Below, in pieces: positions 16,984 through 33,567 of a stretch of DNA of 64,000 nucleotides. The stretch lies in sequence record PP047754; one strand, written 5' to 3'. The position numbers and the translations under genes were made by a program. A model generated the notes under the pieces. That model did not search any database, had not been told where the DNA came from, and saw nothing but the letters and a program-made list of their open reading frames with translations. Source of the stretch: Escherichia phage KEP4. How positions within the stretch are numbered: position 1 is the stretch's first letter; each line of letters starts with the position of its first letter.

Positions 16984-17406
16984 ATGGCCGCTCCGTCACT
17001 GTTCGATTACCTCGGTGCGTTGAATAGCACCAAAGAGAATCTGTTGATGACCGAAGACCCCGAAATCAGAAAGGCTTTTGATCCTTTCATGACTCGGCGC
17101 GGCCTTGCTCAGAGTAAAGACACGCTTGTGGTTGCTGAACAAATGAACCGCTTCCATGCCATTACTCCTTGGATGCAATGGAACCTGGCGTTTCATAGCA
17201 TTCCGGCAAAACGTCGCTATGGCAAGTGGTCTAAGAAGGGAGCTATGGATCCTGATGTGAAATTGATTTCTGAGTATTATTACATCAGTCCTGAAAAGGC
17301 TTCAGAATATGTTCGATTCCTGCCGAAAGAAGTCCTGGCTGAAATCAAGGCGAAGGTCGAACGTTCCAACAGCAACGAAAAAGCCAAACCGCGCAAGGCT
17401 AAGTAA
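16984..17406 (+). CDS. clamp loader small subunit gp62
   Basis: 140 aa between gp44 and regA as in T4; KRRYGKWSK motif. Confidence 0.6.
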   Translation: MAAPSLFDYLGALNSTKENLLMTEDPEIRKAFDPFMTRRGLAQSKDTLVVAEQMNRFHAITPWMQWNLAFHSIPAKRRYGKWSKKGAMDPDVKLISEYYYISPEKASEYVRFLPKEVLAEIKAKVERSNSNEKAKPRKAK

Positions 17407-17435
17407 TTCAAATAATTGTTAAAGGGGTATGAGTC

Positions 17436-17900
17436 ATGGCGCGTAATACGCTGGACATCTTAAAACTTTCAGCTGTCAACGATGAGGCCAGCATTGTTGA
17501 CTGTATGGTTGAAGTTCAATTGAACCAAGACAAACCAGGGATTTTCCTGGGTATCAAGGAAACGCTGAGTCGGATAGGGGTTAACACTCGTCAAGAGCCT
17601 AACACCTTGTATCAAACGTGCCATATCCTGCATAAATTTGGCAGATATCACATCGTGCATTTCAAGCATTTGTTCATGCTAGATGGGCACTACAACGGCT
17701 TTACGCGTGAAGATGTCCTGCGTATGAATCGGATTATACGGCTTCTGGAGCAATGGAATATGGTTAAGATCTTGCATCCGGAACAAATAACCGAAGTGGC
17801 TGACATGTCTCGGATCAAAGTTGTAAAACATGACCAAGTTTCTGAGTGGAAATTGGTTCCAAAATACACTATTCGCCCAAGTCGGGCAAAAAGCGAATAA
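17436..17900 (+). CDS. regA: translational repressor RegA
   Basis: Matches T4 RegA in KETLSRIGV ... LYQTCHILHKFGRYHIVHFKHLF ... SEWKLVPKYTI. Confidence 0.85.
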   Translation: MARNTLDILKLSAVNDEASIVDCMVEVQLNQDKPGIFLGIKETLSRIGVNTRQEPNTLYQTCHILHKFGRYHIVHFKHLFMLDGHYNGFTREDVLRMNRIIRLLEQWNMVKILHPEQITEVADMSRIKVVKHDQVSEWKLVPKYTIRPSRAKSE

Positions 17901-17916
17901 CTGGAGTCGCTATATT

Positions 17917-18780
17917 ATGACAACTACATTTAATAAAAACGTGAGATTGAATTTGGCTTTTGGTAATGCGGCTGGAGATATTACAGCCCCTGACTTCGGT
18001 AAAATTCGCAATCAGGCCAAACTGGTTCTGGAAGAGACCCGCGAATTACTGGAAGCGGCTTATTTCGATCATGACATCAAACTTGAGCTGGTGGCAACTC
18101 CAAAAGAAGACACCGATGATGTTGATATGGATAAAATCCTGAAAGCCATCATGGACGCTCAGGGTGATATCACAACTGTTAATGACGGCGTGGCCCATAT
18201 CGCTGGTTTTAATGGTGATGAATGTTTACAACGTGTGTTTGCCTCTAACATGAGCAAATTTATTCGCTCAGAAGATGAAGTCGGTCCGGCACTGGAATAT
18301 TATTATTCACGCGGTTTCCCAGATGGCCAGTTACGCGTTGAAGGTGAATTCCCTCAGGCATGCATCAAAGTGAATGAGACTGTGATGTGGAATGGAAAAG
18401 AATATCCGAAAGGAAAATTCCTGAAAAACATGGCTGTGTTCAAAGAGCCTGATTTCTCTGATATGCTGACGAATACCCCTTCCCGTCAGATCAATGACAT
18501 CGTTGCCAGCATGGCAATTGAAGAAGGTCAGGTATTTGTTGATGATCTGAACGGCGTGGCGTTGGTATCTCCAAAAACGTTGGAAGTAATTCTTTCTATG
18601 GCAGTTGAAAAATCTTCTCGACCCGTAGATGTTAACGGCCAAATTGAAAGTTATGTGCCAGCGTATATCATTAACGATACCAATATGCCTAAGCTGTGTG
18701 GGGTGTGGGGTGCTAATGTTCGTGTATACGCGTGCGCACCTGTTCAAAACACTGTGACACACCTCTCTCGCTTCGATTAA
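17917..18780 (+). CDS. hypothetical protein, 287 aa; N-terminal MazG/all-alpha NTP-pyrophosphatase-like motif (tentative)
   Basis: AKLVLEETRELLEA ... VDMDKILKAIMD resembles the EExxE ... ExxD signature; not verified by search. Confidence 0.3.
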   Translation: MTTTFNKNVRLNLAFGNAAGDITAPDFGKIRNQAKLVLEETRELLEAAYFDHDIKLELVATPKEDTDDVDMDKILKAIMDAQGDITTVNDGVAHIAGFNGDECLQRVFASNMSKFIRSEDEVGPALEYYYSRGFPDGQLRVEGEFPQACIKVNETVMWNGKEYPKGKFLKNMAVFKEPDFSDMLTNTPSRQINDIVASMAIEEGQVFVDDLNGVALVSPKTLEVILSMAVEKSSRPVDVNGQIESYVPAYIINDTNMPKLCGVWGANVRVYACAPVQNTVTHLSRFD

Positions 18781-18804
18781 TATAATCCGTTATTCACTAA
18801 ACAA

Positions 18805-18830
18805 CAGAGGCTATAATGGCCTCTGTTTTT
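18805..18830 (+). terminator. rho-independent terminator
   Basis: cagaggc-tataatg-gcctctg hairpin followed by TTTTT. Confidence 0.6.
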
Positions 18831-18849
18831 GTATTCTAGAGAGGATACC

Positions 18850-20076
18850 ATGAAAGATAAACCGTGTGACATTCCTTATTGCGGTGTTCGGGAAGCTAAA
18901 ATTAAATCTGCACATCCCATGTTAAGCCCATTCCATAAACAACTCGCATACGAATGGATGAGCGAGCGCTATAAGATCCACGTGAGAAAGGACGTCCAGC
19001 GTCTTCCTGCTCCTTGGACGGATAATCCCATACTACGGCAGGTCAAGTTCTGTAACGTCCGGAGAGAGCACGACAGGCAGTCTCTTAACCTGATCAATAA
19101 TATCGTCAAGAACGACGCTCTGAGCATGGCCGACAAAATGTTCAACTGTGTTCTGTTCCGCATGTTCAATCTCTGGGATCCGATCAAGGTGGCGCTCGAG
19201 GGCGCTATGACGATTTCAGACTTTGCTAAAATCAACCTGGACGAGACCCGCGCCCGTCTTCAGAAGTTTGAATCTGAAGGTGGTAAGATCTTCACCAACG
19301 CATTCAACACAGGCGGTCTAAAACAATGTCTGGCGTTCCCCGAACTTGTTGTCAACCACAAGGAGCAGCGCTTCGGTGGCATGATGGTTAAGGTACACCG
19401 TGTTGGCCAGGGTGTCGTGGATGAATTGGATTACAAGGTCGCCAAGAAGCTGGTTGAAGAGAATCCTGGGGAGTACACCATTGAGGGTTGGGAGCCGTAC
19501 ATGCCAATGCGTGTCATCCGCTCTTTGAAGGCATTCGTCAACAAGTACCCCGATTACTTCAATGATCTTTTACGTCTTGACTCTCCGCTGAAAGTTTACC
19601 AGCGCATGTATGATGACATTGAAGGGCTTGGGCCATTCCTGGCATATCAGATCTGGGTGGACTTCACATACATCCCTGAGTATCCATTCAGTGAGAATCA
19701 TTTCACTATTGCTGGTCCAGGTTGCCGTGCGGGTATTGACCTGATGTTCCTGGATAAGGACGGCATGACTCATGAAGAATGCATATTCTGGGTTCGTGAT
19801 CATCAGTATCAATTGTTTGCTCAGTATGGTTATGTCCAAGAGCAGTTCTGGTCAGCCGAAGCGCCGGAAGATCAGTGCATGAACGTCATGCAGCTGGAGA
19901 ACATGTTCTGTGAATTGAGCAAGTACACCCGCTGTGTTGAGGCTATCGAGAGAGGGGAAAAGCCACGCGGCAAGGTCGGTTATGATGGAGGCGGGAGATA
20001 CAAAAATCGATGCGATGAAATTGTCCTCAATCGCGGATCGGTCAATTTATTAGATCGTTTGAAGAAACCTGAATAA
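18850..20076 (+). CDS. hypothetical protein, 408 aa, with helix-hairpin-helix-like motif; candidate DNA base-modification enzyme
   Basis: GAGAGGA RBS; DIEGLGPFLAYQIWVDF fits an hxGhGxxxA HhH signature as in DNA-glycosylase-like folds; no P-loop. Confidence 0.3.
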   Translation: MKDKPCDIPYCGVREAKIKSAHPMLSPFHKQLAYEWMSERYKIHVRKDVQRLPAPWTDNPILRQVKFCNVRREHDRQSLNLINNIVKNDALSMADKMFNCVLFRMFNLWDPIKVALEGAMTISDFAKINLDETRARLQKFESEGGKIFTNAFNTGGLKQCLAFPELVVNHKEQRFGGMMVKVHRVGQGVVDELDYKVAKKLVEENPGEYTIEGWEPYMPMRVIRSLKAFVNKYPDYFNDLLRLDSPLKVYQRMYDDIEGLGPFLAYQIWVDFTYIPEYPFSENHFTIAGPGCRAGIDLMFLDKDGMTHEECIFWVRDHQYQLFAQYGYVQEQFWSAEAPEDQCMNVMQLENMFCELSKYTRCVEAIERGEKPRGKVGYDGGGRYKNRCDEIVLNRGSVNLLDRLKKPE

Positions 20077-20189
20077 AGAATCGCGTTACTTCGTTCTTCA
20101 ATAACTTTTTCAACGTATATATTGACCTCACTTTAACGACGCGCCCCGATAAGGGCGCTCACTTTGAACTGAAACAGGAAGACTATACC

Positions 20190-22205
20190 ATGGCAGAATT
20201 CAAACCCTTCGCAACGGCAGTTAATAACAACGTGCTGGCGATGTCCGCAACTGGTCTGTTCATGACCAATATCGATAAAGATGCTCTTTGGGATCTGTAT
20301 CTGGCATCTTTCCCTGCTGGTACCAACCCGCTCTACCGTGAGCGTACTGAGCACGACTGCACCTGCTGTAAACAATTCATCCGTAACATCGGCGGTGTGG
20401 TCACCATCGACTCCGACCTGAACGTAATTTCTATCTGGGACAACATTGATCTGGGTAATGAATATGACGTGGTGGCTGCGGCTCTTTCCGCGTATGTCAA
20501 ACAACACGCAATCGTCGATGTTTATTTTAACGATTCTGCCAAAGTCGGCCTGTCTCACAATCACGAAATGAAAGACGGCAATGTCCGCACCTACAACCAC
20601 TTCCACACCGACCTGCTGGGTAGCTATGTTCTGCGTCCGGACGCAATCGCTTCGAAAAAAGGTGAAATCCGCCAGGCTATTGAATTGTTTGAACGCGGTC
20701 TGCGTGAAATTACTCTGGAATCAGCTGAAATCGTTCTGGAACTGATTGACCAGAATTCTCTGTATCGCGGCGCAGAACACAAAGCAGCAGTGAAGGGATT
20801 TGTTGAAACCAAAAAGGCATATGAACAAATCCCCGAATCAGCCCGTTCTCTGTGGGCATGGCATACTGGATACCGTTCAAACAATCATGTTCCACACGGC
20901 ATCCGTAACACAGTTATCGGCACTCTGCTGACAGATATCAGCGAAGGCGTGGAACTGGAAAAGGCTGTTAAATCGTTTGAATCCAAAGTTGCTCCGGCGA
21001 ACTACAAACGTCCGACAGCGCTGGTTTCAAAATCCATGATCGAAAACGCTCAGAAAGAAGTTATTGCTCTGGGTTTGGAAGACTCACTGGCGCGTCGTTA
21101 TGCGGTTTATGATGATCTGACAATCAACAACGTTCTGTTCGCAGATCTGGCTGCTCAGAAAGCGATGGATCCGTTTGCTCAGCTGGCTGCCGAAGTGAAA
21201 ACTCCGACCAAGTCCCTGGAAAAAGTTGAAGAGATCAGCGTTGATGATTTCCTGAGCAATGTTCTGCCAAAAGCGCATTCAATGGAAGTGCTTGTAGAGA
21301 ATTCTCATACTAGCAACCTGATGTCCCTGGTTGCTCCGGCGAACCCAGATGCGCCTAACCTGTTCAAGTGGAACAACGGTTTCTCCTGGTCTTACAACGG
21401 TGAAGTGACCGATTCCATTAAAGAACGTGTAAAGGCTGCTGGCGGTAAAGTTGACGGGTATCTGCGCGTTTCCTTGGCGTGGCACAATAACGACGACCTC
21501 GATCTGCATATGTTCAACAACATGGAGCACGTTTACTTCCGCGATCGCCGCTCTATGACAGGTGCCCATCTGGATATCGATATGAACGGTATGGATGGTA
21601 TTGATCCAAACCGCGCTCCGGTGGAAAATATCATCTTTACAGATGAAAGCAAGCTGCGCGATGGTGAATACCGTTTCGAAATCCACAACTACAATCAACG
21701 TGAAAAAATCGACGAAGGGTTTGAAGTCGAAGTAGAATACAAAGGCGCAACGCATCGTTTCAGCCATCCTGGCCTGAAAGATCAGGGACGTATCACCGCA
21801 GTCATCTTGACTGTTAAAGACAAACAAGTTGTTGGCATTAAGTCCGAACTGGCTAATGTTGATAAGTCTAAAGAAGTTTGGGGTATCAAGACAGCGACCT
21901 TCCAGAAAGTACAGCTGGTCCTGAACTCACCAAACCATTGGGATGGCGAGCAGACAGGCAACAAGCACGTGTTCTTCATCCTGGAAGGTTGTGCTAATCC
22001 TGAAGGTACTCGTGGTTTCTACAACGAATATCTGAAGCCAGAACTGGATAAACATCGTAAGGTTTTTGAAATGTTGGGTAGTAAAATGAAAGTCCAGCCG
22101 AATGAAAACCAACTGTCCGGTCTGGGATTCTCGACGACGCAACGCAACCATGTGTTCGTCAAAGTGTCCGGCGCGTTTAACCGTACTGTAAAAGTCATTT
22201 TCTAA
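20190..22205 (+). CDS. hypothetical protein, 671 aa, highly-expressed-type codon usage
   Basis: Strong AGGAAG RBS and cassette-like upstream region; N-terminal Cys cluster HDCTCCKQF; no recognised catalytic motif. Confidence 0.5.
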   Translation: MAEFKPFATAVNNNVLAMSATGLFMTNIDKDALWDLYLASFPAGTNPLYRERTEHDCTCCKQFIRNIGGVVTIDSDLNVISIWDNIDLGNEYDVVAAALSAYVKQHAIVDVYFNDSAKVGLSHNHEMKDGNVRTYNHFHTDLLGSYVLRPDAIASKKGEIRQAIELFERGLREITLESAEIVLELIDQNSLYRGAEHKAAVKGFVETKKAYEQIPESARSLWAWHTGYRSNNHVPHGIRNTVIGTLLTDISEGVELEKAVKSFESKVAPANYKRPTALVSKSMIENAQKEVIALGLEDSLARRYAVYDDLTINNVLFADLAAQKAMDPFAQLAAEVKTPTKSLEKVEEISVDDFLSNVLPKAHSMEVLVENSHTSNLMSLVAPANPDAPNLFKWNNGFSWSYNGEVTDSIKERVKAAGGKVDGYLRVSLAWHNNDDLDLHMFNNMEHVYFRDRRSMTGAHLDIDMNGMDGIDPNRAPVENIIFTDESKLRDGEYRFEIHNYNQREKIDEGFEVEVEYKGATHRFSHPGLKDQGRITAVILTVKDKQVVGIKSELANVDKSKEVWGIKTATFQKVQLVLNSPNHWDGEQTGNKHVFFILEGCANPEGTRGFYNEYLKPELDKHRKVFEMLGSKMKVQPNENQLSGLGFSTTQRNHVFVKVSGAFNRTVKVIF

Positions 22206-22243
22206 TTGATTTTGACCACAAATTCGTAATAAGGAACAATGAA

Positions 22244-22615
22244 ATGTTTGATCAAGCAACCCGTTTAAAACTGCGTTTCAACTCTAACAAAGGTCTGCTA
22301 TCTGTTGAGCAGGTTTGGGATCTGAATCTGAACGCACTGAACGAGCTGGCGAAAGATCTGAGCCGTCAGGTGAAAGAAGCAGCCAGCGATGAAGAAGACT
22401 TCATCGGTGTGAAAAGCGCGGTCGATTCTCAGTTACAACTGCGGTTCGATATCGTGAAAGCGATCATCGGTGTTAAACTGAAAGAACGCGATGAAAGCGC
22501 GACCGCAGCAGAGCGTAAAGCGAACAACCAGGCGATCATGGAACTGATCCAGCGTAAGAAACAACAGGAACTGGAAGGTCTGTCTGTTGAAGAACTGGAA
22601 AAACTCCTGAAATAA
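22244..22615 (+). CDS. hypothetical charged/helical protein, 123 aa
   Basis: AAGGAAC RBS; followed by a strong terminator. Confidence 0.5.
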   Translation: MFDQATRLKLRFNSNKGLLSVEQVWDLNLNALNELAKDLSRQVKEAASDEEDFIGVKSAVDSQLQLRFDIVKAIIGVKLKERDESATAAERKANNQAIMELIQRKKQQELEGLSVEELEKLLK

Positions 22616-22636: not shown

Positions 22637-22663
22637 AACCCCGCCGTGTGCGGGGTTTCTTTT
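22637..22663 (+). terminator. rho-independent terminator
   Basis: aaccccgc-cgtgt-gcggggtt hairpin followed by TCTTTT. Confidence 0.6.
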
Positions 22664-22674
22664 GGACAAAAATC

Positions 22675-23085
22675 ATGAAATCTATTACGTGTGATTACTG
22701 CGGTCAACCTGCCCAATACGTCGGGTGTGATGTTGTATACCCCCACCGCCCCGACCTCCGCAATCTGAAGTTCTGGGTATGCTCGCCATGCGACGCTCGT
22801 GTGGGTTGCCATACCCATGGGGATGGTAGACAACCTCTGGGAAGGATGGCGAATGCCGCTCTCCGTGCTGCTAAGCAGGAAGCTCATAGATCGTTTGACC
22901 CTATCTGGAAAGGTGGGCAGAGGAGCAGGAGTGATGCTTACAGCTGGCTGGCTCATAATCTGGGGATCAAGAAGCGCGATTGCCATATCGGCTTGTTCGA
23001 TATCGATATGTGCCGTAAAGTAGTCGCTGTGTGTAATCAACTAAAGGCACAAGATAATGTCAAAGGAAATACAAGAAGCATTTGA
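22675..23085 (+). CDS. zinc-finger protein (phage DUF3268-like), 136 aa
   Basis: CDYCGQPA ... VYPHRPDL ... FWVCSPCDARVGCH Cys-rich pattern. Confidence 0.45.
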   Translation: MKSITCDYCGQPAQYVGCDVVYPHRPDLRNLKFWVCSPCDARVGCHTHGDGRQPLGRMANAALRAAKQEAHRSFDPIWKGGQRSRSDAYSWLAHNLGIKKRDCHIGLFDIDMCRKVVAVCNQLKAQDNVKGNTRSI

Positions 23086-23308
23086 AAATTTATCTCAGGT
23101 AATGACCGACTGTAACCGCCGGAATTATTGTGATGAAGCGTATACCAAATTGAAAACTACTGTTGAAACCGAGCTGGCAGGTCTTTCCGTTTTCAAAGAT
23201 ATTCAGACCGAAGCGCTATATCTGTCGGATGAAGATTTAAGGCGTTGCCCCCGCAAGATTTACCAATTACTGGATCGTTTGGTGAAAGTGGGGGTGAATA
23301 ATGGGTAA
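23057..23308 (+). CDS. hypothetical protein, 83 aa
   Basis: ORF overlapping its neighbours at both ends. Confidence 0.3.
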   Translation: MSKEIQEAFENLSQVMTDCNRRNYCDEAYTKLKTTVETELAGLSVFKDIQTEALYLSDEDLRRCPRKIYQLLDRLVKVGVNNG

Positions 23309-24026
23309 TCGTGAAGGGATTAAACTCACACCAGAACTTCTGAAGTCACATATTGCTGAAGTGATTTATGAAGACCGTGAAGTTGGTGGTCACCGCGTCA
23401 TTACATGCCATTTCAAGATGGACAATGGGTTCGTTGTGTGGGGTAAGAATAGTTCCACATCGGTAGACCCTGCCAACTTCGATGAAGAAATGGGCAAGCA
23501 GCTGGCCTATGAAAAGACCTTTTCTCAACTGTGGGAACTGGAAGCATATCGCGCGATGGTAGAAAAGCAGATCATCGATGTGTCTGCCGAAGATGCTAAG
23601 ATCAACATTGATGAATATGTGTCAGAAAGGGAAGCGATACATGAGATGGGTGGTTCTGAATTTCTTAAGGGTAAAGGACAATCCATCGTGTTTCGTCATC
23701 CCAAAGATCCAAGTCGGGGATTTCGCGTTGAATTTGTTCGCACCGATAATGAACGTTATAACGAACGACGCAATGGTGAGGCACGATCTTTGGTGGAAGC
23801 GTATCTTCGCTCGTTCATGACTTCTGAAGAACTAAATTCTGAACTTGTCTTGCGTTTGGCGAAAACGTGTAATGCTGCTTCAGGGGATTATCCGTGGTGT
23901 GACCTGTCAGAAGACAAACGCCAAGCAGCCTGTGATCGTGTTAAGAAATTCTTGTTAGATCCGAAAGCCCAACCTGGTGATTCCGTAGGGGCACTGTATA
24001 GAGCCATTGTGGTGTCCTACTTGTAA
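23301..24026 (+). CDS. hypothetical protein, 241 aa
   Basis: ORF with ATG start and GGTG RBS. Confidence 0.5.
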   Translation: MGNREGIKLTPELLKSHIAEVIYEDREVGGHRVITCHFKMDNGFVVWGKNSSTSVDPANFDEEMGKQLAYEKTFSQLWELEAYRAMVEKQIIDVSAEDAKINIDEYVSEREAIHEMGGSEFLKGKGQSIVFRHPKDPSRGFRVEFVRTDNERYNERRNGEARSLVEAYLRSFMTSEELNSELVLRLAKTCNAASGDYPWCDLSEDKRQAACDRVKKFLLDPKAQPGDSVGALYRAIVVSYL

Positions 24027-24293
24027 TTCTTCAAAAGTCTTTCAAAATCAATAACGTCCGGCAAAATGCTGGGCGTTTCAATTAATAAGCCAAGGTATAA
24101 TGGCCCAACTGAAAACGCGGGGGAATTTCTTTGTCCAAGCCATTCATTCGTTCCGGAGTTGATTCTCTAGACTCCCAATTTAAGCCGAGCGAAGTTTTAA
24201 TCCAACAAATTGAAACCAATCGTGAATTCATAGAACACATGTTGGCAAAGCCGGAAGGTGAAGCCGCTCAAACCACCAAAGAAGGTAATAACG

Positions 24294-26510
24294 ATGATTG
24301 AATCATTAACATTTAAAAATGCGGTAGCAACCGTCGCGCCGTCTAACCATGTAATCGTTGTGGATATCTCCGGTTCCATGTACCGTTCACTTCCTGAAGT
24401 TCGCAAGCATCTGAAGGAAAATCTCCCGTCTCTGGTTAAACCAGAAGATACCGTCAGCATTCTTTACTTTTCATCCCGTGGTGATTTCGGTACGGTATTC
24501 GCTGGCCGTCAGATCAATAGCGCGACCGATCTCAGTGAAATCAATAAACTGATTGACCGCTTCCTGCAACCGTCCGGTTGTACGGGATTTGTAGAACCTC
24601 TGAAGTTGGCTGCTGAAACCGCGTTGAGCCTGAACAAACCTGGTTATGTCAATAACCTGGCGTTCATGACCGACGGCTATGACAACTGCTGGCGCTCTAA
24701 TGAAATTCTGGCAGCAGCTGAAGTACTGCCCAAGGCGTTCGATAATATTACATTCATCGAATATGGCTGGTATTGTAACCGCGAACTTCTGGCTCTGATG
24801 TCCGAGCGTTCTGGCGCGACTCACGTGTTTGCCGAAGGTCAGACTGAATATCAGACCGAACTGGAAAACGTACTGAAATCATCTACGCCGAAAGTGGTTG
24901 TTGATGTTCCCCTGGTTTACACTCATGCCATCTACGTTGAAAACGGCGTGGCAACTGTGCTAGCCGTACAACCCGATGAAGAACACCCGATTGGCCACGT
25001 CAGCATCCCTGAAAGCGTTTCTCAGCTGTGGGTTGTAAACCCTAACATGATCGACCAGCTGGATAATCTGGCAGACACCCAGGCGGCATACGTGCTGGCA
25101 TTCTATGGCGTGTACACCATGGACGCCGATCTGGTCTGGGCCGCGCTGAAGAAGACGGGTGACGTCCGCTTCATCAAACAATACAGCAACTGTTTCACCA
25201 AGCAGGACTATTCCAACATCAAAGTCGATCTGACCCAGGCTATCGTGGATGAAACTCTACGCGGCGTAGATGGCATCGATTACAATATGGTTCCAGCTGA
25301 AGATGCAACGACCATTGTTGATGTCTTGACCTACCTGGCCGAAGCCGATGTCTCTGTTGTCACTAAGCATCCATTGTTCTCTTACAACAGCATCGGTCGC
25401 GGCACTGTGCAGAAAGTTGATGACACTGAAGACAAGCTGGCTGAACAAATCGCCGAAGCCAAAACCAAAGCAGAGCGTAAAGCGCTGGCTCTCAAACTGG
25501 CTGAGCACGAAGATTGGACACCGGAATTTACTCCGGTTGATGACAAAGGGATTGTCCCAATTAGCAATCTGGTCTACAATTCAGAGCGCCCTAACATCAG
25601 CATTCAGACCGTTCAGCATGGGACGGTTGTTGTGCCGGAGTTCGTACAGAAGAAATATGAACTCCCTGAAGAACTGGGAACCTGGCGTTATCGTAATTAC
25701 ACCATCGTCAAAGATGGAATCATCAACCTGAAGACGATGCCGATTACTGCCGAATCTCCGATTGTCCGAGCTAAGGTTGTCCAAGATTTGATCGCCATGG
25801 GCGTTAATGTATTTGGTGGACCGGAAATCTTCATCGTTAATTTAGAAAGCGTTCCGATGGTCAACCGCGCCATGACCAAGAACATCAGTGCTGCCGAATT
25901 CTTCGCTGACAACGTTCGTCGCGAAGCGCTGAAGGCAAAACAGAAAGTTCTGAAATTCTATCGTGATGAACTGGTTGGCAAAGGCAATGCAACTGGTCTG
26001 GCTTCTAAATATGGTAAAGAAGCCGCCGATTTCTTGTCGGCAAATGGCATTCGCGACTACGGGTTCTCGCCGAAAACTACTTCTGTGGAATCAACCGATG
26101 TCTACATGAGCCGTGAGCTGAATGTGAAAATCAAAGGTGCTTCGTCGCTGCCGAGCATTGCGTCAGTTATCAAAAAGCAAGCAGATGGTAAAAAACTGAA
26201 TGTCGCTGATCAGTTGATTGCCAATGCTTTGGCCGAATACGACGCTTTTGTTAAATCGCCAATGATCACCAGCGTACCTGAAGAGACTCAGAAAAAGCTG
26301 ATTGAAAGCTGGATCGGGGACGCAGCAAAAGCGGCCATTAACGAAGTCCGCGCCCTGAACAAAACTCTGTCTAAAGTAGTTTACGGCATCGTCGCTGGTC
26401 ATGGTTGGTTCACTGATTTGGATCTGGAAGAGTCTACGATGGATGTAGAAGTTGATGGGGTGAAATACACCGTCACTGCCGAACTGGCCGAAAAAGAAAT
26501 CAAAATCTAA
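24294..26510 (+). CDS. von Willebrand factor A (vWA) domain protein, 738 aa
   Basis: MIDAS motif VVDISGSM (DxSxS) near the N-terminus, then MTDGYDN; ORF-track start 24258 is a GTG, ATG 24294 chosen. Confidence 0.6.
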   Translation: MIESLTFKNAVATVAPSNHVIVVDISGSMYRSLPEVRKHLKENLPSLVKPEDTVSILYFSSRGDFGTVFAGRQINSATDLSEINKLIDRFLQPSGCTGFVEPLKLAAETALSLNKPGYVNNLAFMTDGYDNCWRSNEILAAAEVLPKAFDNITFIEYGWYCNRELLALMSERSGATHVFAEGQTEYQTELENVLKSSTPKVVVDVPLVYTHAIYVENGVATVLAVQPDEEHPIGHVSIPESVSQLWVVNPNMIDQLDNLADTQAAYVLAFYGVYTMDADLVWAALKKTGDVRFIKQYSNCFTKQDYSNIKVDLTQAIVDETLRGVDGIDYNMVPAEDATTIVDVLTYLAEADVSVVTKHPLFSYNSIGRGTVQKVDDTEDKLAEQIAEAKTKAERKALALKLAEHEDWTPEFTPVDDKGIVPISNLVYNSERPNISIQTVQHGTVVVPEFVQKKYELPEELGTWRYRNYTIVKDGIINLKTMPITAESPIVRAKVVQDLIAMGVNVFGGPEIFIVNLESVPMVNRAMTKNISAAEFFADNVRREALKAKQKVLKFYRDELVGKGNATGLASKYGKEAADFLSANGIRDYGFSPKTTSVESTDVYMSRELNVKIKGASSLPSIASVIKKQADGKKLNVADQLIANALAEYDAFVKSPMITSVPEETQKKLIESWIGDAAKAAINEVRALNKTLSKVVYGIVAGHGWFTDLDLEESTMDVEVDGVKYTVTAELAEKEIKI

Positions 26511-33288: not shown

Positions 33289-33567
33289 ATGAACCGTACT
33301 GATTTTATCGCTCACATCGCCCAGACTCAGGGTATGACCAAAGGCGAAGCAGAGAAGATCGTGGCATCCTTTATCAACGGCGTAAAAACTGCAGTCGCAG
33401 CTGGCCAATCTGTCCAATTCGTCGGCTTTGGCGCGTTTGAAGTTAAACATCAGGAAGCGCGCACTGGCCGCAACCCGCTGAACGGGCAAGCGATTCAGAT
33501 CGAAGCGAAAAATGTTGTTAAATTCAAAGTCGGTGAAGGTCTGAAAGCTGCTGCCAACGGCCAGTAA
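33289..33567 (+). CDS. HU/IHF-family histone-like DNA-binding protein
   Basis: 92 aa; VQFVGFGAFEVKHQEARTGRNPLNGQAIQIEAKNVVKFKVG matches the HU signature GFGxF...R.GRNP.TG. Confidence 0.85.
   Translation: MNRTDFIAHIAQTQGMTKGEAEKIVASFINGVKTAVAAGQSVQFVGFGAFEVKHQEARTGRNPLNGQAIQIEAKNVVKFKVGEGLKAAANGQ

What the first reader, a model, noticed from the sequence alone, without database searches (positions are those of the whole stretch)
17917..20076. Candidate DNA base-modification module next to regA: MazG-like ORF plus HhH-motif ORF
Where T4 has only regA and the polymerase gene, this phage has a 287-aa ORF with an EExxE...ExxD all-alpha NTP-pyrophosphatase-like motif (LEETRELLEA ... VDMDKILKAIMD) followed by a 408-aa ORF with a helix-hairpin-helix signature (IEGLGPFLAYQIWVDF) and no P-loop. 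Phages with non-canonical thymidine derivatives pair a MazG-type dNTPase (to exclude the canonical nucleotide) with DNA-glycosylase-like aGPT-Pplase enzymes that decorate 5-hmdU in DNA. An HU/TF1-type protein elsewhere in the window (33289-33567) fits the same picture. The downstream abundant 671-aa unknown (20190-22205) could belong to the same module.
Basis: partly seen in the sequence, partly recalled or inferred. Interest (0 to 1): 0.75.

Follow-up and report, generated by a model that had tools for sequence, protein, structure and literature searches.

The report
Known ViI-type thymidine-hypermodification genes
These two genes belong to a Salmonella phage of the ViI (Kuttervirus) group, whose DNA is already known to carry a hypermodified thymidine: one is a MazG-like nucleotide pyrophosphatase and the other is the counterpart of ViI gp160, a DNA-glycosylase-like protein already listed among the modification genes, though what either protein actually does has not been shown.

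Summary
Both ORFs are real. The window is a Kuttervirus (ViI-like, Ackermannviridae) Salmonella phage, 98.6% identical to phage ISTP3 here.

ORF2 (18850-20076, 408 aa) matches Pfam PF18723 at 1.4e-83. This family is now called "5-hmdU DNA kinase, helical domain" and was formerly aGPT-Pplase clade 1. ORF2 is 94% identical to ViI gp160, which Lee et al. 2018 listed as "aG/PT-PPlase1" and included in their 5-NeOmdU reconstitution. Its predicted fold is HhH-glycosylase-like. It has no P-loop.

ORF1 (17917-18780, 287 aa) has no direct Pfam hit, but profile and fold searches place its N-terminal 185 aa in the MazG-like all-alpha NTP pyrophosphatase superfamily.

Caveats:
- The serine-adding enzyme is a different gene (gp247, PF18724), outside the window.
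- The published purified-enzyme pathway lists only kinase, gp247 and gp226, not gp160.
- The hydroxymethylase, kinase, transferase and PLP genes are absent from the window but present in ISTP3.
- The 671-aa neighbour is widespread in unrelated phages and is not part of the module.

ORF2's reaction remains open. Its family keeps a Glu-x3-Cys-Glu motif that lines up with the catalytic Glu/Cys of amino-acid:DNA transferases, so it is probably a second enzyme acting on phosphorylated 5-hmdU.

The parts
17917..18780 (+). ORF1, 287 aa. Ortholog of ViI gp161 (Vi01_131c). It has a MazG-like all-alpha NTP pyrophosphatase domain (about residues 1-185) and a beta-rich C-terminal domain of unknown function (about residues 190-287).
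18031..18045 (+). ORF1 residues E39-E40-T-R-E43, the first acidic (metal-binding type) motif of MazG-like enzymes.
   Evidence: E40 and E43 are invariant in a 65-sequence alignment whose members are down to 22% identical to ORF1.
18154..18168 (+). ORF1 residues D80-A-Q-G-D84, the second acidic motif.
   Evidence: D80 is invariant and D84 at least 90% conserved. The motif aligns to the ELADLL helix of DR2231.
18803..18827 (+). Terminator-like hairpin between ORF1 and ORF2: an 11-bp stem, a 3-nt loop, then TTTTTGTATT.
   Evidence: Found in the scan. The intergenic RNA folds at -21 kcal/mol, z = -4.1. It is identical in ViI and SeSz-1. Function was not tested.
18850..20076 (+). ORF2, 408 aa. Ortholog of ViI gp160 (Vi01_130c, 'aG/PT-PPlase1'). 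Member of Pfam PF18723 HMUDK_hel, with an HhH-glycosylase-like fold and no kinase domain.
19585..19665 (+). ORF2 residues 246-272: the helix-hairpin-helix (helix 246-256, hairpin IEGLGP, helix 262-272). F263, Y266 and D271 are invariant across the family.
   Evidence: Secondary structure of the model and invariant columns. The only alignment hhalign produced places this segment on the FGPWIGFK hairpin of PaMx11 gp46, but that alignment is not statistically significant.
19894..19926 (+). ORF2 residues 349-359, LENMFCELSKY: the family-wide E-x3-C-E-x2-K-Y motif and candidate active site.
   Evidence: C354, E355, K358 and Y359 are invariant and E350 nearly so, from Ackermannviridae to PaMx11 gp50, Sonora and TM26. 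The motif is also present in SP10 gp186 (EGWCCEMSKY) and Pherbot gene 53 (QNVFCEFSKY). It lines up with VETILCKWKS of PaMx11 gp46, where E243 and C247 are active-site residues (PMC11472151).

Best explanation
The window comes from a ViI-like (Kuttervirus) Salmonella phage. According to the published work on ViI, these phages replicate with 5-hydroxymethyl-dU in place of T. They then convert about 40% of those sites to 5-(2-aminoethoxy)methyl-dU (5-NeOmdU) and the rest to thymidine.

ORF2 is the ortholog of ViI gp160, which has already been catalogued as aGPT-Pplase clade 1 (now Pfam HMUDK_hel). That identity is shown here. My inference is that ORF2 is a base-flipping, DNA-glycosylase-fold enzyme, and not a passive domain of the kinase. 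It would act on 5-hmdU that the phage's P-loop DNA kinases have phosphorylated to 5-PmdU, and it would use the conserved Glu350/Cys354/Glu355 in the way amino-acid:DNA transferases use their Glu/Cys: thiol attack at C6, loss of phosphate, and an exocyclic methylene that a nucleophile then captures. Which nucleophile it uses, and so which product it makes, is unknown.

ORF1 is a MazG-like dNTP pyrophosphatase; the fold and the acidic motifs are shown here. It most plausibly helps shape the dNTP pool, for example by removing dTTP or dUTP so that hmdUTP is incorporated. That role is inferred and its substrate is untested.

The rest of the pathway lies outside the window: the TS-like hydroxymethylase, the kinases gp67 and gp243, the serine transferase gp247 and the PLP decarboxylase gp226.
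For: Identity of the phage and of ORF2:
- The region is 98.6% identical to ISTP3 in DNA.
- ORF2 is 94% identical to Vi01_130c (orf00160).
- Lee 2018 Table 3 lists gp160 as aG/PT-PPlase1 and used it in the five-lysate reconstitution.
- PF18723 hits at 281 bits.

Arguments for a catalytic role:
- C354, E355, K358 and Y359 are invariant across very distant members.
- They align with E243/T244/C247 of gp46. Mutating the conserved Cys or the neighbouring Glu to Ala abolishes activity in M6 gp51 and ViI gp247 (PMC8989533), and gp46 C247 is the proposed C6 nucleophile (PMC11472151).

Link to the kinase and the hydroxymethylase:
- The domain is fused to the kinase in SP10 gp186.
- It lies directly after the kinase in PaMx11, Sonora, TM26 and Pherbot.
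- Of 46 IMG/VR loci with at least 7 kb downstream of the transferase gene, 45 have it, 41 show the order kinase < HEL < TS, and in 37 it starts within 300 nt of the kinase ORF.
- A Vibrio Ackermannviridae phage has it inside a single cluster: polB, HMUD2 kinase, ADDT, HEL, HMUDK1 kinase, TS, dNMP kinase, dUTPase.

ORF1. Homologues occur in the thymidine-modifying phage PhiW-14 (gene 206) and, next to the TS and kinase genes, in Pherbot.

Rest of the pathway present in ISTP3.
Against: - No experiment assigns an activity to gp160. The 2021 paper's enzyme table assigns functions only to gp67, gp226, gp243 and gp247, its purified-enzyme pathway to 5-NeOmdU uses only these, and the paper never says whether gp160 is needed. 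The M6 counterpart, gp55, could be omitted from lysate reactions.
- Sequence similarity between the ORF2 family and ADDT is not statistically significant (hhalign probability 0.2%, E 0.29). The motif correspondence therefore rests on one weak alignment plus a fold match whose residue-level superposition I could not inspect.
- ORF1 itself fails every curated Pfam and NCBIfam model, and Foldseek against the PDB found nothing. Close homologues of its N-domain sit in phages with no visible modification cluster. None was found within 10 kb of the transferase gene in the 80 IMG/VR loci.
- A terminator-like hairpin separates the two ORFs.
Confidence: 0.8

Rival explanations
1. ORF2 is a non-catalytic helical DNA-binding or targeting partner of the 5-hmdU DNA kinase, as the current Pfam name implies. 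It would hold or flip the base for phosphorylation, or set the sequence context, without chemistry of its own.
For: The domain is fused to the kinase in SP10 gp186. It is immediately downstream of the kinase, often overlapping it, in most loci. It is not part of the published purified-enzyme pathway.
Against: The Cys-Glu pair is invariant in a motif that matches the catalytic one of ADDT. Two complete phage genomes have kinase, ADDT and TS but no member of this family: Rhodoferax P26218 and a Manatee Spring podophage. Kinases phosphorylate DNA on their own, including the SP10 kinase domain with this domain deleted (PMC8989533).
Confidence: 0.25
2. ORF2 is the missing enzyme that turns the remaining (phosphorylated) 5-hmdU into ordinary thymidine. 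It would use the same Cys-C6 chemistry as the transferases, but the exocyclic methylene would be reduced rather than captured by an amino acid.
For: Lee 2018 states that the conversion of 5-hmdU to thymidine is unexplained. According to the papers, PhiW-14, SP10, ViI and M6 all make both T and a hypermodified base, and all four are listed with a second glycosylase-like gene or domain: gp72, gp186C, gp160 and gp55. I confirmed PF18723 membership here for ViI gp160 and SP10 gp186C only. M6 gp51 plus borohydride makes thymidine from 5-PmdU, so the chemistry is feasible on this scaffold. The gene sits next to the TS-like hydroxymethylase in nearly all loci.
Against: There is no direct evidence, no recognisable NAD(P)H, flavin or folate site, and no hydride donor proposed. 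Pherbot has this gene and a kinase but no ADDT, where a pure 'restore T' role looks odd. SP10 appears to have only this domain yet makes glutamyl-thymidine, which suggests the family can itself be a transferase. I could not sample systems that make hmdU by T-dioxygenases, where the hypothesis predicts the gene is absent.
Confidence: 0.2
3. ORF2 is an ordinary HhH DNA glycosylase (repair, or removal of a base such as uracil or hmU) that only happens to sit in this phage.
Against: It hits no glycosylase family by sequence. The family is tied to base kinases and hydroxymethylases by fusion and by gene order. Its conserved residues are the Cys-Glu motif. A glycosylase acting on hmU would destroy the phage's own replication product.
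Confidence: 0.05
4. ORF1 and ORF2 are not a functional pair. ORF1 is a general phage nucleotide-pool or host-takeover pyrophosphatase whose place beside ORF2 is an accident of Kuttervirus genome layout.
For: There is a terminator-like hairpin between them. No ORF1 homologue lies near the ORF2 homologues of the Vibrio, Sonora or TM26 phages, nor in the 80 IMG/VR clusters. An ORF1 N-domain homologue sits among structural genes in another phage. A review notes that Ackermannviridae genomes are 'scattered' (PMC11721090).
Against: The adjacency is kept across enterobacterial Ackermannviridae. MazG-type genes recur in hmdU-type phages: PhiW-14 gene 206, Pherbot gene 42 and PaMx11 gp62. hmU phages are known to need a dTTPase/dUTPase (PMC8989533 introduction).
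Confidence: 0.4

Closest known systems
Salmonella phage ViI gp160 (Vi01_130c, YP_004327501), 'aG/PT-PPlase1' of Lee et al. 2018; Pfam PF18723
   Same: 94% amino-acid identity over the full length, the same neighbours (gp45, gp44, gp62, regA, MazG-like, gp160, the 671-aa ORF) and the same Pfam family.
   Different: Nothing material; it is the same gene in a sister phage. Its biochemical function is still unassigned.
Amino acid:DNA transferases (ADDT, formerly aGPT-Pplase clade 2; PF18724): ViI gp247, M6 gp51, PaMx11 gp46/PUGT (PDB 8Z2M/8Z2N)
   Different: There is no PF18724 hit and no significant profile-profile similarity. ORF2 has about 100 extra residues (roughly 150-245). It has an extra invariant Glu after the Cys, and K-Y in place of K-W-K. 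ORF2 has no demonstrated transferase activity and is not part of the published purified-enzyme route to 5-NeOmdU.
Bacillus phage SP10 gp186 (5-hmdU DNA kinase fused to this domain)
   Same: Its C-terminal half (313-598) is PF18723 and keeps the GPGC and E-x3-C-E-x2-K-Y motifs.
   Different: In SP10 the domain is fused to the P-loop kinase. Here it is a free-standing protein, and in ViI the gp67 kinase gene lies about 50 kb away.
MazG-like all-alpha NTP pyrophosphatases: Deinococcus DR2231 (a dUTPase, PDB 2YEU) and Exiguobacterium Exig_1061 (PDB 3NL9)
   Different: 18% identity or less. ORF1 carries an extra beta-rich C-terminal domain of about 100 residues, seen at full length only in Ackermannviridae. 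Its substrate is unknown.
Queuosine salvage glycosylase QNG1/DUF2419 (PDB 7UGK, 7U07)
   Different: 10-13% identity and no sequence-level relationship. QNG1 acts on free nucleotides or nucleosides, with no link to kinases or hydroxymethylases.

Membership tests
Pfam PF18723 HMUDK_hel (formerly aGPT-Pplase clade 1) | Score above the curated gathering threshold over most of the model | tested here: met
   281 bits against a cut-off of 25; residues 31-367 match model positions 5-280 of 281.
Pfam PF18723 HMUDK_hel (formerly aGPT-Pplase clade 1) | Association with a P-loop 5-hmdU DNA kinase, by fusion or by gene neighbourhood | tested here: inconclusive
   There is no kinase in the 64-kb window. 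The kinases are present elsewhere in the near-identical phage ISTP3, and are adjacent or fused in other lineages.
Amino acid:DNA transferase (PF18724 ADDT, aGPT-Pplase clade 2) | Match to the family model | tested here: not met
   No PF18724 hit at E <= 0.1. hhalign against gp247 and against an ADDT alignment was not significant.
Amino acid:DNA transferase (PF18724 ADDT, aGPT-Pplase clade 2) | Conserved catalytic Glu and Cys (gp46 E243 and C247) | tested here: inconclusive
   An E350-x3-C354 motif, invariant or nearly so in the ORF2 family, aligns to VETILC of gp46. However, the alignment is statistically weak, and no 3D superposition was possible.
Amino acid:DNA transferase (PF18724 ADDT, aGPT-Pplase clade 2) | Transfer of an amino acid or amine to 5-PmdU in DNA | not testable with these tools
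   This is a biochemical assay. The literature shows this activity for gp247, not for gp160.
HhH(-GPD) DNA glycosylase superfamily | Two-lobed helical fold with a helix-hairpin-helix | tested here: met
HhH(-GPD) DNA glycosylase superfamily | Catalytic Asp (and Lys in bifunctional enzymes) after the hairpin; glycosylase activity | not tested
   Residue-level superposition was not available. D271 is invariant, but its equivalence to the catalytic Asp was not established.
5-hmdU DNA kinase (PF18748 or PF18747 P-loop kinases) | Walker A motif and kinase domain | tested here: not met
   No Walker A motif and no kinase family hit. ViI gp67 and gp243 do hit these models.
MazG / all-alpha NTP pyrophosphohydrolase superfamily (ORF1) | Match to a curated family model (PF03819, PF12643 or PF01503) | tested here: not met
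   ORF1 itself has no Pfam or NCBIfam hit. Of its 65 homologues, 24 hit PRA-PH, 11 hit MazG and 10 hit MazG-like.
MazG / all-alpha NTP pyrophosphohydrolase superfamily (ORF1) | Homology and fold match to solved members | tested here: met
MazG / all-alpha NTP pyrophosphohydrolase superfamily (ORF1) | Acidic metal-binding motifs EExxE and (E/D)xxD | tested here: met
   E39, E40 and E43 are present, with E40 and E43 invariant. D80 is invariant and D84 at least 90% conserved.
MazG / all-alpha NTP pyrophosphohydrolase superfamily (ORF1) | dNTP pyrophosphohydrolase activity and substrate preference | not testable with these tools
   This needs an enzyme assay.
ViI-type 5-NeOmdU thymidine hypermodification system | The genome encodes a TS-like dUMP hydroxymethylase, 5-HMUDK kinase(s), a serine:DNA transferase and a PLP decarboxylase | tested here: inconclusive
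   None of these is in the window. All are present in ISTP3, at 79-94% identity to the ViI proteins. The rest of this phage's genome is not available.
ViI-type 5-NeOmdU thymidine hypermodification system | 5-NeOmdU in virion DNA | not testable with these tools
   Reported for ViI, CBA120, CBA6 and 1.255.O (PMC5889632).

The most novel reading that the evidence does not exclude
The PF18723 family (ORF2, ViI gp160, M6 gp55, PaMx11 gp50, SP10 gp186C) is not a helical appendage of the kinase. It would be a second, independent Cys-dependent enzyme acting on phosphorylated 5-hmdU in DNA. In phages that have both families, it would be the long-sought activity that converts the 5-hmdU not chosen for hypermodification back into thymidine.
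Probability: 0.2. Interest if true: 0.65.

Novelty: already known. Interest (0 to 1): 0.25.

Why it matters
As a finding it is a correct rediscovery. ViI-like phages are the textbook case of 5-NeOmdU DNA, ORF2's ortholog was named and cloned in 2018, and ORF1 is already labelled MazG-like in RefSeq. It shows that the first-stage reader can recognise a base-modification gene from motifs alone.

What remains of interest is narrower. Neither protein has a demonstrated activity. The step that turns leftover 5-hmdU into thymidine was still described as unknown in 2018 (PMC5889632), and no paper I could search has since assigned it to an enzyme. The comparative data gathered here are:
- an invariant Glu-x3-Cys-Glu motif;
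- the conserved gene order kinase, this gene, hydroxymethylase;
- complete phage genomes that have this gene and a kinase but no detectable ADDT, and others that have ADDT and a kinase but not this gene.

Together these argue that the family deserves a direct biochemical test. They also suggest that its current Pfam name may undersell it.

Tried and rejected
- Direct Pfam and NCBIfam scans of ORF1 found nothing.
- phmmer of ORF1, ORF2 and ViI gp247 against PDB sequences found nothing, and neither did the ORF2 family profile.
- hhalign of the ORF2 family against gp247 and against a five-member ADDT alignment was not significant. I use the resulting motif alignment only as a lead.
- Looking for the rest of the pathway in the window: tblastn with ViI gp63, gp65, gp66, gp67, gp226, gp239, gp243 and gp247 gave no hits. 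The window ends at the ssb gene, about 4 kb short of the gp67 kinase gene in ISTP3 coordinates.
- The 671-aa ORF as part of the module is rejected. It has homologues in 558 phage records, including Caulobacter, Bacillus, Microcystis and Stenotrophomonas phages, and none near the ORF2 homologues of other lineages.
- ORF2 as a kinase is rejected: it has no P-loop.
- I tried to test whether PF18723 is absent from systems that make hmdU with T-dioxygenases. The 80 IMG/VR loci seeded with ADDT were almost all of the thymidylate-synthase type, so the test could not be made.
- A context look-up of the closest short ORF1 homologue showed structural genes only.
- Iyer et al. 2013 and the EcoSal review were not in the library. 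What I say about the original prediction comes from how Lee et al. cite it.
Full report
**What is there.** The window carries, on the + strand, a helicase, gp45, gp44, gp62 and regA (PF01818, 4e-35). These are followed by ORF1 (17917-18780, 287 aa), ORF2 (18850-20076, 408 aa), a 671-aa ORF (20190-22205) and further genes. Both ORFs have good ribosome-binding sites, and their starts match RefSeq annotation in related phages.

**Which organism.** DNA from 17400 to 22300 is 98.6% identical to Salmonella phage ISTP3 and 98.4% to SeSz-1 (Ackermannviridae, Kuttervirus). In all, 280 phage records match and 191 cover at least 80% of the stretch. The window is colinear with Salmonella phage ViI (Vi01) from about 107 kb down to its ssb gene at about 43 kb.

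**What is already known about ViI.**
- Lee et al. 2018 (PMC5889632) showed that about 40% of the thymidines of ViI-like phages are 5-(2-aminoethoxy)methyl-dU. They listed the candidate genes as gp67 and gp243 (5-hmdU DNA kinases), gp226 (PLP enzyme), gp160 (aG/PT-PPlase1) and gp247 (aG/PT-PPlase2), and reconstituted the base with five lysates.
- Lee et al. 2021 (PMC8989533) showed with purified proteins that the kinases make 5-PmdU, gp247 transfers serine and gp226 decarboxylates. gp160 is absent from their table of assigned functions. In M6 the second glycosylase-like protein, gp55, could be left out.
- These papers' gp numbers are the orf00NNN notes of the ViI record. I checked this for gp67, gp226, gp243 and gp247 against the accessions they give.
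- ORF2 is 94% identical to Vi01_130c (note orf00160), and ORF1 corresponds to Vi01_131c (orf00161, RefSeq 'MazG-like pyrophosphatase').

**ORF2.**
- Pfam gives one hit, PF18723 HMUDK_hel ('5-hmdU DNA kinase, helical domain'), at 1.4e-83 over residues 31-367. This is the family that phage papers cite as aGPT-Pplase1 (PMC10458263, PMC9476957).
- ViI gp247 hits a different model, PF18724 ADDT.
- An AlphaFold model built on 40 homologues is confident (pLDDT 87.9, pTM 0.85).
- Sequence searches against the PDB found nothing.

**Is ORF2 catalytic?**
- I aligned Ackermannviridae members with distant relatives from phages Sonora, PaMx11 (gp50), RHph_TM26 and a Vibrio Ackermannviridae phage.
- The invariant positions include R72, E73, D75, R104, N107, F263, Y266, D271, G289-P-G291, C354, E355, K358 and Y359, with E350 nearly invariant. 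C292 is not conserved.
- SP10 gp186 and Microbacterium phage Pherbot gene 53 keep the same E/Q-x3-C-E-x2-K-Y motif.
- In the ADDT family the corresponding invariant stretch is V-E243-T244-I-L-C247-K-W-K. E243 and C247 are active-site residues in the gp46 structure, and the Cys and Glu are essential in M6 gp51 and ViI gp247.
- Profile-profile comparison of the two families is not significant (probability 0.2%, E 0.29). Its single alignment nevertheless pairs the two HhH hairpins and pairs NVMQLENMFCELSK with NIQEVETILCKWKS.
- I treat this as a reasonable inference and not a demonstration. ORF2 probably flips out a 5-substituted dU and attacks C6 with Cys354.

**Genomic context of the family.**
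- In SP10 the domain is fused to the kinase: PF18748 at residues 35-193 and PF18723 at 313-598.
- In PaMx11, Sonora, TM26 and Pherbot it follows the kinase directly.
- In a Vibrio Ackermannviridae phage the whole pathway is one cluster: polB, HMUD2 kinase, ADDT, this gene, HMUDK1 kinase, TS-like, dNMP kinase, dUTPase.
- I collected 80 IMG/VR loci seeded on ADDT and annotated them with HMMs built here. Of the 46 with at least 7 kb downstream, 45 have the kinase, 45 have this family and 46 have the TS-like gene. In 41 the order is kinase, this gene, TS, and in 37 the gene begins within 300 nt of the kinase ORF.
- The family is not obligatory. The complete genomes of Rhodoferax phage P26218 and a Manatee Spring podophage have ADDT, kinase and TS but no member of it.
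- Conversely, the complete genome of Pherbot has this gene, a kinase and TS but no detectable ADDT.
- So each glycosylase-like family can partner a kinase on its own. This fits a second catalytic enzyme better than a passive kinase domain.
- What it makes in ViI-like phages is unknown. The conversion of leftover 5-hmdU to thymidine was explicitly unexplained in 2018, and no later paper I could search assigns it. That is the most interesting reading not excluded, but I have no direct evidence for it.

**ORF1.**
- It has no Pfam or NCBIfam hit. PHROG 2144 is labelled MazG-like.
- A search of 1.8 billion representative proteins found 232 relatives, nearly all matching only residues 1-185.
- Of 65 aligned homologues, 24 hit PRA-PH, 11 hit MazG and 10 hit MazG-like.
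- The alignment profile hits the MazG-like dUTPase DR2231 at 2.3e-7.
- E40, E43 and D80 are invariant, and D84 is nearly so.
- The C-terminal 100 residues are beta-rich, modelled with low confidence, and found at full length only in Ackermannviridae.
- Relatives include PhiW-14 gene 206 and Pherbot gene 42, next to its TS and kinase genes. Others lie in phages with no modification cluster nearby, and none is present in the 80 IMG/VR clusters.
- A role in excluding dTTP or dUTP is plausible, given what is known of hmU phages. It remains untested.

**Are the two a module?** A strong terminator-like hairpin (18803-18827; region MFE -21 kcal/mol, z = -4.1) lies between them and is conserved in ViI and SeSz-1. 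I found the adjacency only in the enterobacterial Ackermannviridae examined. The 671-aa ORF has homologues in 558 phage records of many unrelated groups and none near ORF2 homologues elsewhere, so it is not part of the pathway. The HU-type protein at 33289-33567 is real (PF00216, 1.1e-29).

**Rest of the pathway.** None of the ViI hydroxymethylase, kinase, transferase, PLP, dNMP-kinase, dUTPase or deoxyribonucleotidase genes is in the window. All are present in ISTP3 at 69-94% identity to the ViI proteins.

**Verdict.** The finding is already known at the level of gene identity and pathway. The biochemical roles of both proteins are still open.

Noticed in passing
window 18803-18827 (+): A strong terminator-like hairpin (11-bp stem, then a T-run) lies in the 69-nt gap between ORF1 and ORF2. 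The stem and loop are identical in ViI and SeSz-1; SeSz-1 has one extra T in the T-run. It suggests the two genes are not simply co-transcribed.
   Followed up: partly
L003 6203-6865 (ViI gp67); L008 19218-19787 (PaMx11 gp49); L096 17383-19296 (SP10 gp186); L093 10603-11181 (Rhodoferax gp15): RefSeq labels these 5-hmdU DNA kinases 'terminase small subunit'. PHROG 800, which carries that label, also weakly hits ORF2 residues 263-369 (2.5e-5), so the PHROG seems to contain kinase-helical-domain fusions. This looks like a propagated misannotation.
   Followed up: partly
window 20190-22205 (+): An intact 671-aa ORF with no Pfam, NCBIfam or annotated PHROG function, yet with homologues (down to about 37-45% identity, full length) in Caulobacter, Bacillus, Microcystis, Stenotrophomonas and Vibrio phages. 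In the ViI reference record it is split into two CDS (Vi01_129c and Vi01_128c), probably by a frameshift or sequencing error.
   Followed up: partly
L093 (Rhodoferax phage P26218), L094 (Manatee Spring podophage), L095 (Microbacterium phage Pherbot): Some complete phage genomes combine a base kinase and a TS-like hydroxymethylase with only one of the two glycosylase-like families: ADDT only in L093 and L094, PF18723 only in L095. The ORF2 protein search matched 24 Microbacterium phage records in all. The DNA modifications of these phages are, as far as I could find, undescribed.
   Followed up: partly
L006 (Vibrio phage 1.244.A) 347-11885: In this Vibrio Ackermannviridae phage the hypermodification genes that are scattered over the ViI genome (from about 36 kb to 152 kb) form one contiguous cluster next to the DNA polymerase. 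This may be the ancestral arrangement.
   Followed up: partly
window 33289-33567 (+); L096 21538-21858: The HU-type DNA-binding protein is confirmed (PF00216, 1.1e-29). SP10, another thymidine-hypermodifying phage, has an HU homologue between its TS-like gene and its DNA polymerase gene.
   Followed up: partly
window 24258-26510 (+), 22648-23085 (+), 23301-24026 (+): Downstream genes encode a 750-aa von Willebrand factor A-domain protein, a DUF3268 zinc-finger protein and an N4 gp49/Sf6 gp66-family protein. All are of unknown role.
   Followed up: no
window 18484-18777 (+), ORF1 residues 190-287: The C-terminal beta-rich domain of the MazG-like protein is modelled with low confidence and is found at full length only in Ackermannviridae. 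Some UniRef entries call it a PAS domain. Its function is unknown.
   Followed up: no
L064 1590-4620: An IMG/VR contig carries a radical-SAM protein, a 5-hmdU DNA kinase and an ADDT back to back, followed by a terminase. No PF18723 or TS-like gene lies within the 8.4 kb available. It may be a different pathway variant.
   Followed up: no
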